Shown one piece after another: positions 60,201-63,200 of a stretch of 64,000 nt of DNA; the stretch's first letter is position 1, and each line of letters begins with the position of its first letter. Position numbers: made by a program. Origin of the DNA: Escherichia coli (GTDB lineage Bacteria; Pseudomonadota; Gammaproteobacteria; Enterobacterales; Enterobacteriaceae); NCBI RefSeq assembly GCF_003018115.1, contig NZ_CP027457.1. The stretch is one strand, 5' to 3'.

Positions 60201-63200
60201 AAAGGCGGGCGCTTAATTGTTGAAAAAGATGGGATTGCCGTCTTTGCCGCTATCGAAAAGGGAGGATTACTGGAGGTTAAAGACGGGGGATTAGCATTTG
60301 CGGTAGATCAGAAAGCAGGCGGTGCTATTAAAGCAAGCACGCGGGTCATGGAGGTATTCGGAACAAACCGTCTCGGTCAGTTCGAAATCAAGAATGGTAT
60401 TGCTAACAATATGCTGTTGGAAAACGGCGGAAGTTTGCGAGTTGAAGAAAATGACTTCGCTTATAATACTACTGTAGATAGTGGCGGCTTACTGGAGGTT
60501 ATGGATGGCGGGACTGCAACTGGCGTTGATAAAAAAGCAGGCGGAAAATTAATTGTCTCAACGAATGCGCTGGAAGTGAGTGGTACAAACAGTAAAGGCC
60601 AATTTAGTATAAAAGATGGTGTGTCAAAAAATTATGAACTGGATGATGGTTCTGGGCTTATTGTTATGGAGGACACGCAGGCCATTGACACTATCCTCGA
60701 TGAGCATGCCACTATGCAATCGCTGGGAAAGGATACTGGTACGAGAGTGCAGGCAAATGCGGTATATGATCTCGGTCGATCAGATCAGAATGGAAGTATA
60801 ACGTATTCCTCTAAAGCCATCTCTGAAAATATGGTTATCAACAATGGCCGCGCTAATGTCTGGGCTGGCACAATGGTTAACGTTTCAGTCAGAGGGAATG
60901 ATGGCATTCTTGAGGTCATGAAGCCGCAAATAAATTATGCACCCGCTATGTTGGTGGGTAAGGTAGTGGTTTCTGAGGGCGCTTCTTTTAGAACGCATGG
61001 TGCCGTGGATACCAGCAAAGCGGATGTTTCGCTCGAAAATAGCGCATGGACCATCATTGCCGATATCACTACGACGAACCAAAACACCCGCCTTAACTTA
61101 GCCAACCTTGCGATGTCTGGCGCAAATGTGATTATGATGGATGAGCCAGTGACTCGTTCATCTGTGACGGCAAGTGCGGAAAATTTCACTACGTTGACCA
61201 CCAATACCCTGTCGGGAAACGGCAATTTTTATATGCGTACCGATATGGCGAATCATCAGAGCGATCAGCTCAACGTCACCGGTCAGGCAACAGGTGATTT
61301 CAAAATATTCGTGACGGACACCGGTGCCAGCCCGGCAGCAGGAGATAGCCTTACACTGGTAACAACGGGCGGCGGTGATGCTGCATTTACGTTGGGCAAT
61401 GCCGGAGGCGTTGTTGATATCGGTACGTATGAATATACCTTGCTGGATAATGGCAACCATAGCTGGAGTTTGGCAGAGAATCGCGCGCAAATTACCCCTT
61501 CAACCACTGATGTGCTGAATATGGCGGCCGCACAACCGCTGGTATTTGATGCAGAACTGGACACCGTGCGTGAGCGTCTTGGTAGCGTAAAAGGCGTTAG
61601 TTACGATACGGCGATGTGGAGTTCGGCAATTAACACCCGCAACAACGTGACCACTGATGCGGGAGCTGGTTTTGAGCAAACATTGACGGGCCTGACGCTC
61701 GGTATCGATAGCCGTTTCTCCCGTGAAGAAAGCAGTACAATTCGCGGCTTGTTCTTTGGTTACTCTCATTCTGATATTGGTTTTGATCGCGGCGGAAAAG
61801 GTAATATCGATAGCTATACCCTGGGGGCTTATGCCGGTTGGGAGCATCAGAACGGTGCCTATGTTGATGGAGTGCTGAAAGTTGACCGTTTTGCCAACAC
61901 CATCCATGGCAAGATGAGTAATGGGGCAACAGCGTTTGGCGATTACAGTAGTAACGGCGCAGGTGCTCATGTCGAGAGCGGGTTCCGTTGGGTTGACGGA
62001 TTGTGGAGTGTTAGACCCTATCTCGCCTTTACCGGCTTTACCACAGATGGTCAGGACTACACGTTATCAAACGGCATGCGCGCGGATGTGGGAAATACCC
62101 GGATATTACGCGCTGAAGCGGGAACGGCGGTAAGCTATCACATGGACCTGCAAAACGGTACGACGCTGGAACCCTGGCTGAAAGCCGCCGTGCGTCAGGA
62201 ATACGCCGATTCTAACCAGGTGAAAGTTAATGACGATGGCAAATTTAATAATGATGTGGCTGGAACCCGTGGCGTTTATCAGGCTGGGATAAGGTCATCG
62301 TTTACCCCGACGTTAAGCGGTCATTTGTCAGTCAGCTATGGCAATGGCGCAGGGGTAGAATCGCCGTGGAATACCCAGGCTGGTGTGGTCTGGACGTTCT
62401 GATAACAGACAATAAACAGGCCGTGATGTGTCGCGGTCTGTTTATCGAATTAAATGCAGATATAAAAAAACCAACCTTTACGGTTGGTTTTTTTTGGGAT
62501 TTTTGGTCGCACGAGAGTAGTTTAATTGAACGTGTAACTTAATGATTTAAAAGAATGAGTCTGATTCAACTTTTAAGCCGTATAACCAAACGTATAGCTA
62601 AATTTATTTGCTGAAAAAATGTACAATTTAGAGTCAGATTTTCCCAGATGTTTAATTTATAAAACGAAGCTGGCGGCTGTTCTCTGATATGTGGATCCCC
62701 ATATCTGGAACCCTACCGGAATTTTTTTCCGGTTACCCTTTAATCAGGCTGGTGGGCTTTACCTGTTCGGTAGGTATGATCATTATGATCATACCTTTCG
62801 CCCCAATGGGAGGTAAAAGCGCCAACTGGACGGTTAAACCGTCTTTTTGTCACATCGTGTCACTGGTTGTCACTCTCCGTCACGATGTCCGCTCGCCTGG
62901 CTGTAAATCAAACTACGAAATTTTCGTAGTTGTGAGTAAGCCCCAAAATATGGGGATTACTCTTACTACCCAAACTACGGGTAGTTTCCGTAGTTTCATA
63001 GTCGAGTTGCAGATCTGCAACTCCCCCACCAGCCAGCGCAATTTTGCGCTTTGCTTTAAGTTCAGCGAGTTACAGCGCCGACTTCCTCAAATTGAGGTTG
63101 CCGGAAATATCAACCAGTTACGAGGCTCAAAATTGAGCCGCCTTTAAATCAACACGTTACCGCCGTAACCGCTCCGGCTTCTTCCAGTTGTACGTAATTT

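What the first reader, a model, noticed from the sequence alone, without database searches (positions are those of the whole stretch)
62690..63150. About 450-bp non-coding block packed with palindromes downstream of yejO
At least ten independent perfect or near-perfect dyads lie within 450 bp, including a 25-bp perfect palindrome (AGGTATGATCATTATGATCATACCT), a 21-bp one (AACTACGAAATTTTCGTAGTT) and a 20-bp one containing AGATCT (GAGTTGCAGATCTGCAACTC). The heptamer AACTACG/CGTAGTT recurs five times in both orientations. The only ORF across it (62689..63147, 152 aa) reads like a translated palindrome rather than a protein. This density looks like a cis-acting region (origin of replication or transfer, recombination arm sites, operator cluster) or a set of small structured RNAs, not ordinary intergenic DNA. 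K-12 has proL right after yejO as far as I recall, so this block appears strain-specific.
Basis: seen in the sequence. Interest (0 to 1): 0.6.

Follow-up and report, generated by a model that had tools for sequence, protein, structure and literature searches.

The report
Palindrome-rich tail of a phage satellite
The palindrome-packed block is the gene-free outer end of a ~10-kb phage satellite (a PICI) inserted at the proL tRNA gene, and such dyad arrays, partly built on repeated IHF-binding sites, are a shared but apparently undescribed trait of this well-known satellite family.

Summary
Window 62690-63150 holds 8 perfect dyads with arms of at least 7 nt, against 0.16 expected (0 of 1000 shuffles). 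No other part of the 64 kb comes close.

The block is not host DNA. It is the 3'-terminal non-coding stretch of a Gram-negative phage-inducible chromosomal island (PICI) integrated in proL. It lies between the last conserved late gene (93 aa) and the integrase arm sites. K-12 has proL directly beside yejO.

The block is not the origin: GTGGGGAG iterons lie elsewhere. It is not cos, not the att arm sites, not REP or ERIC, and not a known RNA family.

Relatives, including the model EcCICFT073, carry similar arrays: 122 dyads in 39 distinct arrays against 8 expected. The arrays are mosaic and turn over fast. Dyad arms change in a compensated way, and neither strand is favoured, so the symmetry acts on the DNA.

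The gene-proximal units carry perfect IHF consensus sites, all co-oriented, each with a dyad centred 15.5-17 bp upstream. Relatives have cargo genes inserted inside the array.

My best reading is an IHF-folded, BIME-1/RIB-like boundary and cargo landing pad. The function is inferred, not shown.

The parts
62503..62516 (.). Attachment-site core copy, TGGTCGCACGAGAG. It is a one-base-deleted copy of the 3' end of tRNA-Pro (proL). Satellite DNA starts at about 62517/62518.
   Evidence: Compared with the intact proL end TGGTCGGCACGAGAGGATTTGAACC at the other end of the element in L001. The match to an identical element at another chromosomal site starts at 62517. ARAGORN finds no tRNA in the window.
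62578..62599 (.). Doubled integrase arm-type motif, CCGTATAACCAAACGTATAGCT.
   Evidence: The same CGTATAAC motif occurs four times (two direct, two inverted) next to int at L001 29833-29884. Doubled arm motifs at comparable distances are described for related PICIs in PMC10111431.
62686..62705 (.). Imperfect 20-bp dyad GATATGtGGATCCcCATATC, centred on GGATCC.
   Evidence: Read. Perfect versions (TATGGGGATCCCCATA, CGATATGGGaatcCCCATATCG) sit at the same relative place in relatives.
62715..62733 (.). Dyad ACCGGAAtttttTTCCGGT.
   Evidence: It is shared with many relatives that have a different integrase and att site.
62748..62755 (+). Chi site GCTGGTGG, on the strand antisense to the satellite genes.
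   Evidence: (I23).
62772..62796 (.). 25-bp perfect palindrome with two TGATCA hexamers.
   Evidence: It is absent from IMG/VR. Relatives hold an imperfect version, AGGTATTACGATAATCATAACACCT.
62829..62843 (.). Dyad GACGGTTaAACCGTC, followed on the + strand by TTTTTG (terminator-like on the + strand).
62849..62883 (-). Four GTGAC repeats at exact 10-bp spacing, so all on one helical face.
   Evidence: Read. This is a recurrent module with 4-5 copies in 32 fetched loci; in some it sits directly after the 93-aa gene.
62911..62931 (.). 21-bp perfect palindrome AACTACGAAAtTTTCGTAGTT.
62934..62962 (.). Imperfect dyad GAGTAAgCCCCAaaataTGGGGaTTACTC.
   Evidence: A variant in relatives is shown.
62965..62995 (.). 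ACTAC/GTAGT cluster: nested dyads including AAACTACggGTAGTTT at 62972-62987.
   Evidence: (I13).
63004..63023 (.). 20-bp perfect palindrome centred on AGATCT.
   Evidence: The exact sequence occurs in 63 IMG/VR contigs, most of them about the size of a satellite.
63026..63033 (-). Chi site (CCACCAGC on the + strand), on the sense strand of the satellite genes. It faces the Chi at 62748.
   Evidence: (I23).
63035..63050 (.). Dyad AGCGCAAttTTGCGCT.
   Evidence: Compensated variants in relatives are AACGCAA..TTGCGTT and AAGTGCA..TGCACTT.
63085..63120 (+). IHF/dyad unit: dyad CCTCAAaTTGAGG (63085-63097), then 10 nt, then the perfect IHF consensus TATCAACCAGTTA (63108-63120).
63124..63159 (+). IHF/dyad unit: dyad GGCTCAAaaTTGAGCC (63124-63139), then the perfect IHF consensus AATCAACACGTTA (63147-63159). 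The consensus overlaps the stop codon of the 93-aa gene.
63157..63438 (-). Last conserved satellite gene, 93 aa (PHROG 1561, function unknown). It always precedes the array.
   Evidence: The homologue in EcCICFT073 is shown.
63471..63672 (-). cos-like packaging site; the cosN-like core lies at about 63620-63637.
   Evidence: It is 85-87% identical to unannotated DNA between Rz and the small terminase gene of VT1-Sakai and other Stx phages. Its resemblance to the lambda cosQ-cosN sequence rests on my own knowledge of lambda.
63696..64000 (-). 3' part of the ClpP-like prohead protease/major capsid fusion gene; it runs off the window.

Best explanation
The block is the cargo-free, non-coding 3' end of a ~10-kb Gram-negative phage-inducible chromosomal island (a phage satellite) integrated in the proL tRNA gene. 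It fills the space between the satellite's last conserved late gene (93 aa) and the integrase arm of the attachment site.

It is a mosaic of short modules that act as double-stranded DNA:
- Two co-oriented IHF consensus sites (three in EcCICFT073 and some other relatives). In the units that carry a perfect dyad, the short A/T-centred dyad lies in a fixed register, centred 15.5-17 bp upstream.
- Further perfect dyads.
- Four GTGAC repeats on one helical face.
- Two Chi sites facing each other.

Proposed working: IHF binds and sharply bends the gene-proximal units. Together with the dyads this forms a BIME-1/RIB-like boundary at the end of the satellite's single long operon. The boundary separates the late operon from attP-int in the excised circle, and from host DNA in the integrated state, by blocking transcription and the spread of supercoiling. 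The reiterated units and Chi sites make the stretch recombination-prone, so it serves as the landing pad where accessory genes are gained and lost.

Shown: the identity and position of the block, DNA-level symmetry with compensated changes, IHF consensus sites in fixed register, and cargo inserted in relatives.

Inferred: IHF occupancy, the insulating role, and the role in cargo exchange.

The confidence of 0.45 is for the whole statement. The identity as the terminal region of a PICI alone I put at about 0.95, and IHF binding at about 0.65.
For: Identity:
- A 99.4% identical locus continues the window with capsid fusion, PerC, RepA helicase, DUF4222, Icd-like, HTH, integrase and an intact tRNA-Pro.
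- The gene order matches published GN-PICIs.
- The model satellite EcCICFT073 has the 93-aa gene followed by a 555-bp array.
- K-12 lacks the element.

Family trait:
- 122 perfect dyads in 39 distinct arrays, against 8.3 +/- 2.6 in shuffles.

DNA-level symmetry:
- Both strands fold equally well.
- Mismatches that would be G-U on the sense or on the antisense strand number 26 and 35.
- Most of the dyads listed in relatives have 0-2 unpaired central bases.
- The same flanks hold unrelated or compensated dyads.
- In the IHF-unit slot, 4 of 7 pairs change on both sides, and the covariation score is 0.52 against 0.18 (0 of 500 shuffles).

IHF:
- 2 of the 5 perfect WATCAANNNNTTR matches in the 64-kb window lie 39 bp apart at the gene-proximal end.
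- In the family there are 39 matches on one strand and 5 on the other in 25 kb, where about 0.4 per strand would be expected.
- All 14 units with an arm of at least 5 have the dyad centred at -17 to -15.5.
- Elsewhere in the satellites the same pattern picks out sites beside the att core, and in L001 one in the spacer that holds the second cos copy.

Cargo pad:
- A PerC gene pair sits inside the array in a satellite at the same proL site.
- Only 4 of the 933 genomes that match the block cover at least 80% of it.
- The 3' end of PICIs is a published accessory and immune-gene location.

Architecture precedent:
- The BIME-1 linker carries an IHF site between palindromic units.
- REPs act as terminators, mRNA stabilisers and topological insulators (PMC3333891).
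Against: - No binding or transcript data exist; IHF occupancy rests on consensus and register only.
- Only the two gene-proximal units of this window carry IHF sites. The three largest palindromes (25, 21 and 20 bp) and the GTGAC repeats remain unexplained by IHF.
- Most dyads lack a T-run, so they are not intrinsic terminators. Only 5 terminator-like sites were found against 1.8 expected, all on the + strand.
- Homology breakpoints are only weakly enriched at dyad edges: 20% against 16% within 3 nt.
- The whole satellite is Chi-rich, with 9 sites in 10 kb, so Chi in the block is not special.
- Six of 39 arrays have no perfect dyad, and some carry GTGAC repeats in place of IHF units.
- Rows for the covariation count were chosen for having a dyad, which inflates the percentage paired.
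Confidence: 0.45

Rival explanations
1. Structured RNA. The dyads are hairpins in the 3' untranslated tail of the late transcript (or in small RNAs) that terminate transcription, protect the mRNA 3' end or are processed, as REP hairpins do.
For: The block lies directly downstream of the last gene of a unidirectional operon. It folds far better than shuffles (z -9.3). One module keeps three mutually complementary segments across variants, which suggests alternative pairings. Some dyads in relatives are classical terminators with T-runs.
Against: There is no strand preference in folding and no excess of G-U-compatible mismatches on the sense strand (26 against 35). Most dyads are complementary through the centre, with 0-2 unpaired bases, which RNA hairpins do not need. 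There are no Rfam hits at E up to 1 in two arrays. Only one weak promoter-like site was found.
Confidence: 0.17
2. Neutral debris. The stretch is left over from repeated gain and loss of accessory genes (old terminators, operators, relic att fragments). Perfect symmetry is kept not by selection but by template-switch 'self-correction' of quasi-palindromes during replication.
For: The structure is mosaic and turns over fast. Cargo is inserted in relatives. Some arrays hold a tRNA-like relic fragment. Six of 39 arrays lack dyads. The dyads do not recur elsewhere in the same satellites.
Against: The IHF cores and dyads sit in a fixed register, and the first core overlaps the stop codon in most loci. 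This argues for selection on at least the proximal units. The dyad density is 15 times expectation across the family. Some modules are conserved between satellites with different integrases and capsid modules.
Confidence: 0.17
3. Operator-like decoys. Each perfect palindrome is a high-affinity site for a dimeric DNA-binding protein of a helper phage, a rival element or the satellite itself. The array would be a sponge or a regulatory cluster whose content tracks its partners.
For: Perfect two-fold symmetry through the centre and lengths of 13-25 bp are typical of sites bound by protein dimers. The dyads are very diverse, with more than 25 types, and swap fast. AACTACG clusters four times within 85 bp. 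The GTGAC repeats lie on one helical face.
Against: Dyad half-sites are not enriched elsewhere in the same satellite (1.5 against 1.3 per half-site). The one extra AACTACGAAA copy goes with the integrase type, not with the presence of the ACTAC cluster. The EcCICFT073 dyads have no counterpart in the immunity region of the neighbouring lambdoid prophage. There are too many dyad types for the roughly 12 satellite genes.
Confidence: 0.1
4. Extended attachment site. The block carries accessory sites (IHF, excisionase/AlpA, integrase arm) needed for integration or excision.
For: The block is adjacent to the att core. IHF sites and phased direct repeats are classical components of attP.
Against: The recognisable arm motif lies outside the block, at 62578-62599, within about 90 bp of the core. 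The IHF units lie about 600 bp from the core here and 370-530 bp away in EcCICFT073. That distance is variable, while their distance to the 93-aa gene is fixed. The same modules occur with unrelated integrases and arm motifs. A separate IHF consensus sits about 60 bp from the core on the int side.
Confidence: 0.06
5. Origin of replication or transfer, or a real 152-aa gene on the + strand.
For: The block is dense in repeats and dyads. A 152-codon open frame spans it.
Against: The origin is identified elsewhere, with the published organisation (GTGGGGAG iterons flanking an AT-rich core; with PMC6092414), and no iteron is shared with the block. There is no relaxase in the element. The open frame is not conserved in frame or extent among relatives, the units have no robust 3-nt periodicity, and PGAP calls no gene there in identical loci.
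Confidence: 0.02

Closest known systems
BIME-1 / RIB (RIP) elements of E. coli: palindromic units flanking an IHF-binding linker at the 3' ends of transcription units
   Same: Short palindromes alternate with a co-oriented IHF consensus. The position is directly after the last gene of an operon. Copy number is variable and the structure is mosaic.
   Different: There is no sequence relation: the REP consensus finds 8 true REPs elsewhere in the window and none in the block. Here the dyads are 13-25 bp, mostly perfect and of many unrelated sequences, whereas REPs are one 35-bp family. The array is confined to a satellite family and is not dispersed in the chromosome.
3'-end accessory (immune/virulence) region of Gram-negative PICIs such as EcCICFT073
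   Same: The position is the same, between the packaging module and the att site. EcCICFT073 itself carries the 93-aa gene plus an array. Cargo is inserted there in relatives.
   Different: The papers I could search describe the genes carried there, not a non-coding IHF/dyad array. In this window the site is empty.
IHF-organised recombination and packaging sites of lambdoid phages (attP H1/H2/H', cosB R3-I1-R2)
   Same: IHF consensus sites are interleaved at roughly 40-50 bp with short protein-site-sized elements. Both lie near att and cos.
   Different: The array's distance to the att core is variable. Its orientation follows the 93-aa gene and not cos, which is inverted in EcCICFT073. The arm sites and cosB-type repeats are separate sequences.
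pSC101 par locus (a cis-acting, inverted-repeat-rich gyrase-binding region of a small replicon; from my own knowledge)
   Same: Both are a few hundred bp of non-coding DNA packed with inverted repeats in a small replicating element, thought to act through DNA topology.
   Different: No sequence comparison was made here, gyrase binding is untested, and par has no array of IHF sites.

Membership tests
Gram-negative PICI (phage satellite) | Tyrosine integrase and a specific att site with a direct repeat, about 10-15 kb in size, genes transcribed in one direction | tested here: met
   L001 is 99.4% identical over the window's end. It holds an integrase next to intact proL, a 14/15-nt core repeat, about 10 kb between the cores, and all genes on one strand.
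Gram-negative PICI (phage satellite) | AlpA-type regulator, a replication gene followed by an origin made of two iteron sets flanking an AT-rich core | tested here: met
   The HTH protein matches excisionase/regulator PHROGs, and a RepA-family helicase is present. GTGGGGAG iterons flank an AT-rich core at L001 24358-24558. The published organisation is in PMC6092414.
Gram-negative PICI (phage satellite) | Helper-type cos site, and no full set of structural and lysis genes | tested here: met
   Window 63471-63672 is 85-87% identical to the Rz-terminase spacer of Stx phages. The only structural gene is a protease/capsid fusion.
Gram-negative PICI (phage satellite) | Induction and transfer by a helper phage | not testable with these tools
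   This needs experiments. A 10.79-kb circular copy of a relative was deposited as a plasmid.
REP / BIME | Match to the REP (palindromic unit) consensus | tested here: not met
   A consensus pattern written from memory finds 8 REPs elsewhere in the window (0-3 mismatches) and none at 62400-63200.
REP / BIME | IHF consensus in the linker between palindromic units, at the 3' end of a transcription unit (BIME-1/RIB) | tested here: met
   This is an architectural resemblance only.
ERIC / IRU | Conserved ERIC core sequence | tested here: not met
   The ERIC core 22-mer has no match in the window with up to 3 mismatches.
IHF binding site | WATCAANNNNTTR core with A/T-rich DNA upstream | tested here: met
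   Perfect cores lie at 63108-63120 and 63147-63159. The family logo keeps W and R, and the N4 positions vary. Actual binding was not tested.
Integrase arm sites of attP | Repeats of the arm-type motif found on both sides of the core | tested here: not met
   The CGTATAAC motif lies at 62578-62599 and beside int. It has no copy inside 62690-63150.
Replication origin of the satellite | Iterons shared with the rep-proximal origin | tested here: not met
   The block and L001 24358-24558 share no 9-mer except a chance CAAAATTGA, and the block has no GTGGGGAG.
Known RNA families (Rfam 15) | Covariance-model match | tested here: not met
   There is no match inside the block at E up to 1 in the window, and none in the EcCICFT073 array.
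Integron attC array | An IntI integrase, and 57-141-bp imperfect palindromes bounded by RYYYAAC ... GTTRRRY | tested here: not met
   No IntI gene is present. The units are about 48 bp, and the two box-like strings are adjacent, which is in fact the IHF core read on the other strand.

The most novel reading that the evidence does not exclude
The hypervariable, IHF-scaffolded palindrome array is an active cis device in the conflict between satellite, helper and host. It could be a sponge of perfect operator-like sites for DNA-binding dimers of helpers or rival elements. It could instead be a set of extrudable cruciforms used as a structure-specific signal in packaging, recombination or defence evasion. 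Either way it would be a new class of non-coding satellite function, present in the model EcCICFT073.
Probability: 0.12. Interest if true: 0.8.

Novelty: new variant of a known kind. Interest (0 to 1): 0.45.

Why it matters
PICIs are widespread carriers of virulence and anti-phage genes, and their 3' end is where much of that cargo sits. If the IHF/dyad array is what makes this end a boundary and an exchange platform, it would explain how cargo is swapped so readily.

It would also add a cis-acting part to a satellite whose proteins have been studied in detail. The model element EcCICFT073 carries a typical array, so the idea can be tested directly with existing strains.

The array is also a practical marker. 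Together with the conserved 93-aa gene it flags the outer end of this satellite family in unannotated genomes.

Tried and rejected
1. Replication origin or P4-like crr. Rejected: the origin iterons are elsewhere and are not shared with the block.
2. cos or cosB. Rejected: cos lies upstream of the 93-aa gene. In EcCICFT073 cos is inverted while the array keeps the gene's orientation, and its cosB side has its own ATGTCCGGTT repeats.
3. Binding array for the 93-aa protein. No support: no Pfam domain, a narrow family, only weak ankyrin-like similarity, a three-helix model with pLDDT 73, and no significant fold match.
4. The 93-aa protein as Rpp or as a fragment of the terminase large subunit. Rejected: published Rpp proteins are 144-153 aa, the sequence search of solved structures returned no Rpp or terminase chain, and there is no similarity to the TerL N-terminus.
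5. Protein coding on the + strand, or read-through repeats. TAA-delimited units first looked in frame, but the 3-nt periodicity comes from one repeated 48-nt gap and fails otherwise. The open frames are not conserved.
6. AlpA or promoter-linked operator for the ACTAC cluster. The extra AACTACGAAA copy downstream of int goes with the integrase type, not with the presence of the cluster.
7. Operator mimicry of the neighbouring prophage in CFT073. No matches in its immunity region.
8. Breakpoints at dyad edges. The first control was unfair. With a fair control the enrichment is small, so this is inconclusive.
9. Chi as a specific part of the block. The whole satellite is Chi-rich.
10. Excess of short restriction-type or Dam sites. 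Six-base palindromes are not enriched overall (353 against 418 expected), and GATC is at 1.13 times expectation.
11. Similar DNA in phages: none. In plasmids there are six partial matches, all E. coli; the one examined is a circular satellite.
12. REP and ERIC membership: not met.
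Full report
**Observation.** The sequence at 62690-63150 is as described.
- A scan for perfect dyads (arm at least 6, loop at most 6) lists nine between 62715 and 63139. Two long imperfect dyads add to the count (62686-62705 and 62934-62962).
- Against dinucleotide-preserving shuffles, the block has 8 dyads with arms of at least 7 where 0.16 are expected (0 of 1000 shuffles). Three have arms of at least 10, where none are expected. 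It is the extreme window of the whole 64 kb.
- AACTACG occurs four times exactly within 85 bp, not five.
- The 152-aa ORF exists but is not conserved in relatives.

**What the block belongs to.**
- ARAGORN finds no tRNA in the last 9 kb. However, 62503-62516 (TGGTCGCACGAGAG) is a one-base-deleted copy of the 3' end of tRNA-Pro.
- A locus 99.4% identical over 62400-64000 (L001) continues beyond the window. In order it holds a ClpP-like prohead protease/major capsid fusion gene, PerC, a RepA-family helicase, DUF4222, an Icd-like protein, an HTH regulator, an integrase and then intact proL.
- In K-12, proL lies about 100 bp from yejO.
- The gene order, the size of about 10 kb, the single direction of transcription and the tRNA-fragment damage match the Gram-negative phage-inducible chromosomal islands (PICIs) described in PMC6092414 and PMC10111431.
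- An end of the element 100% identical over the 1,484 bases compared sits in an lpf fimbrial gene in another strain, which fixes the start of satellite DNA at about 62517.
- A relative exists as a 10.79-kb circle deposited as a plasmid.

**What the block is not.**
- Not the origin. That is a set of GTGGGGAG iterons flanking an AT-rich core downstream of the helicase gene, as published for this family. It shares nothing with the block.
- Not cos. Window 63471-63672, upstream of the 93-aa gene, is 85-87% identical to the unannotated spacer between Rz and the small terminase gene of VT1-Sakai and other Stx phages, and it contains a cosN-like core. A second copy lies on the other side of the capsid gene.
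- Not the integrase arm. The doubled CGTATAAC motif is at 62578-62599 and beside int.
- Not REP or ERIC.
- Not a known RNA family.
- No similar DNA occurs in 50,697 phage records.

**A family trait.**
- I used the 93-aa protein encoded just upstream (63438..63157, minus strand; PHROG 1561, no Pfam domain) to fetch 80 IMG/VR loci, and I examined further E. coli loci.
- In 39 distinct 550-nt regions downstream of this gene there are 122 perfect dyads with arms of at least 7, against 8.3 +/- 2.6 in shuffles. Twenty-six of the 39 have three or more.
- More than 25 unrelated dyad sequences occur.
- The arrays are mosaic. 2,920 of 5,426 complete E. coli genomes match some part of 62400-64000. Only 933 match part of 62517-63156, and only 4 of those cover at least 80% of it.
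- The model satellite EcCICFT073 has the same gene followed by a 555-bp array before phoQ.

**DNA symmetry rather than RNA.**
- Both strands fold equally well (z -9.3 and -9.8).
- Mismatches in imperfect dyads show no preference for G-U on the sense strand (26 against 35).
- Most of the dyads listed in relatives are complementary up to 0-2 central bases, which RNA hairpins do not require.
- Within identical flanks the dyad is replaced or changed symmetrically. Examples are TAATCAT/ATGATTA, TGGTCAT/ATGACCA and TTTCGAT/ATCGAAA; TCCCCCA against TCCTCAA; and AGCGCAA against AACGCAA.
- On an ungapped alignment of 17 units, 4 of 7 pairs change on both sides. The covariation score is 0.52, against 0.18 in shuffles (0 of 500), and slid partners score much lower. 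The rows were chosen for having a dyad, so the percentage paired is inflated; the variety of pair types is not.

**IHF units.**
- The conserved 'leader' of the gene-proximal units, read on the window's + strand, is the IHF consensus WATCAANNNNTTR.
- The window has five perfect matches in 64 kb. Two of them lie 39 bp apart at 63108-63120 and 63147-63159, and the second overlaps the stop codon of the 93-aa gene.
- In the family there are 39 perfect matches on that strand and 5 on the other in 25 kb, where about 0.4 per strand would be expected.
- The unselected W and R positions follow the consensus, and the N positions vary.
- In 14 of 27 distinct contexts a perfect dyad with an arm of at least 5 lies upstream, always centred at -17 to -15.5. 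The other contexts were not scored for a longer-looped or imperfect dyad.
- Elsewhere in the satellites the same pattern falls beside the att core in both L001 and L227, and in L001 also in the spacer that holds the second cos copy. This gives the consensus some predictive credit. Binding itself is untested.

**Other modules.**
- Four GTGAC repeats at exact 10-bp spacing (62849-62883) recur in 32 fetched loci with 4-5 copies. In some satellites they directly follow the gene instead of the IHF units.
- Two Chi sites face each other at 62748-62755 and 63026-63033. Chi is about ten times more frequent in the arrays than my recollection of the E. coli average. However, the whole satellite is Chi-rich, so I give this little weight.

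**Cargo site.**
- In another satellite at the same proL site, a PerC gene and a divergent small gene sit between the proximal units and the distal modules of the array.
- The 3' end of PICIs is a published location of accessory and immune genes.
- The block in this window is therefore the empty form of that site.
- Homology breakpoints are only slightly enriched at dyad edges once the control is fair.

**Tests of the protein-site reading.**
- Dyad half-sites are not enriched elsewhere in the same satellite.
- The one extra AACTACGAAA copy downstream of int follows the integrase type and not the ACTAC cluster.
- The EcCICFT073 dyads have no counterpart in the immunity region of the adjacent lambdoid prophage.
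- The 93-aa protein shows no DNA-binding signature.

**Interpretation.** The closest known architecture is BIME-1/RIB: palindromic units flanking an IHF-binding linker at the 3' ends of transcription units. REP elements of that kind are credited with termination, mRNA protection and topological insulation (PMC3333891). There is no sequence relation.
- I therefore read the gene-proximal part as an IHF-folded boundary at the end of the satellite's long operon.
- I read the whole stretch as a recombination-prone landing pad for cargo.
- This function is inferred. The 25-, 21- and 20-bp palindromes and the GTGAC repeats remain unexplained.
- Structured RNA, neutral debris kept symmetric by template switching, operator-like decoys and an extended att site remain as rivals, in that order.

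**Novelty.** The element is a member of a known family. The papers I could search on this family describe its genes, origin, cos and att motifs, but not a non-coding IHF/dyad array. I rate it a new variant of a known kind of element, of moderate interest. It can be tested directly in EcCICFT073.

Noticed in passing
window 63440-63695; L001 21042-21298 and L001 23189-23837: The satellite carries two near-identical cos-like copies, one on each side of the protease/capsid fusion gene. This echoes the two cos sites published for EcCICFT073.
   Followed up: partly
L227 3095-3330 (EcCICFT073): The lambda-like cos between rppA and the 93-aa gene is inverted relative to the genes. Its cosB side holds three copies of ATGTCCGGTT (two direct, one inverted). 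These are candidates for the satellite-specific R elements that the published work could not identify.
   Followed up: no
L002 19990-20020 and 29900-29925: An end of the satellite 100% identical over the 1,484 bases compared sits inside an lpf fimbrial gene in strain JNE141411. Only CACG-type microhomology is seen at the junction, so this is an off-target integration by a proL-type integrase.
   Followed up: partly
window 62503-62516: The attR-side copy of the proL 3' end has lost one G relative to the intact gene. This is the tRNA-fragment 'damage' reported as typical of PICIs.
   Followed up: yes
L003 10640-23110: In an O157 strain a related satellite is integrated inside the terminase large subunit gene of a lambdoid prophage (a helper-embedded PICI). 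A second protease/capsid fusion gene lies in the surrounding prophage.
   Followed up: no
L086 (NZ_CP148328.1, 10,790 bp): A record deposited as a non-mobilizable plasmid is a complete circular satellite (int to 93-aa gene plus array and attP). It may be an episomal form or an excised copy captured by the assembly.
   Followed up: partly
L001 20100-30030; L003, L004, L005, L086: The satellites are Chi-rich throughout, for example 9 GCTGGTGG in about 10 kb of L001. By my recollection the E. coli average is about 1 per 4.6 kb.
   Followed up: partly
window 63157-63438 (- strand): The conserved 93-aa protein has a nearly invariant C-terminus, KKPERLRR, whose codons overlap the first IHF consensus. 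It shows weak ankyrin-repeat-like similarity, no Pfam domain and no fold match. It sits where the terminase large subunit follows the small one in helpers (L086).
   Followed up: partly
window 59811-62402: yejO is an intact 863-codon gene here. In K-12 it is split by IS5, and in the otherwise near-identical locus L001 it carries an internal stop.
   Followed up: no
L039, L062, L066 (about 120-190 nt downstream of the 93-aa gene): These arrays contain a fragment resembling the 3' end of a tRNA (..catcgccgcaggttcgaaa..). It may be a relic attachment site from an earlier integration or recombination.
   Followed up: no
L030 and L031, about 390-530 nt downstream of the 93-aa gene: A cluster of five TGTTAAC motifs, including the palindromes AGTTAACATGTTAACT and AGGTTAAcaTTAACCT, looks like a true operator cluster belonging to some cargo module.
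   Followed up: no
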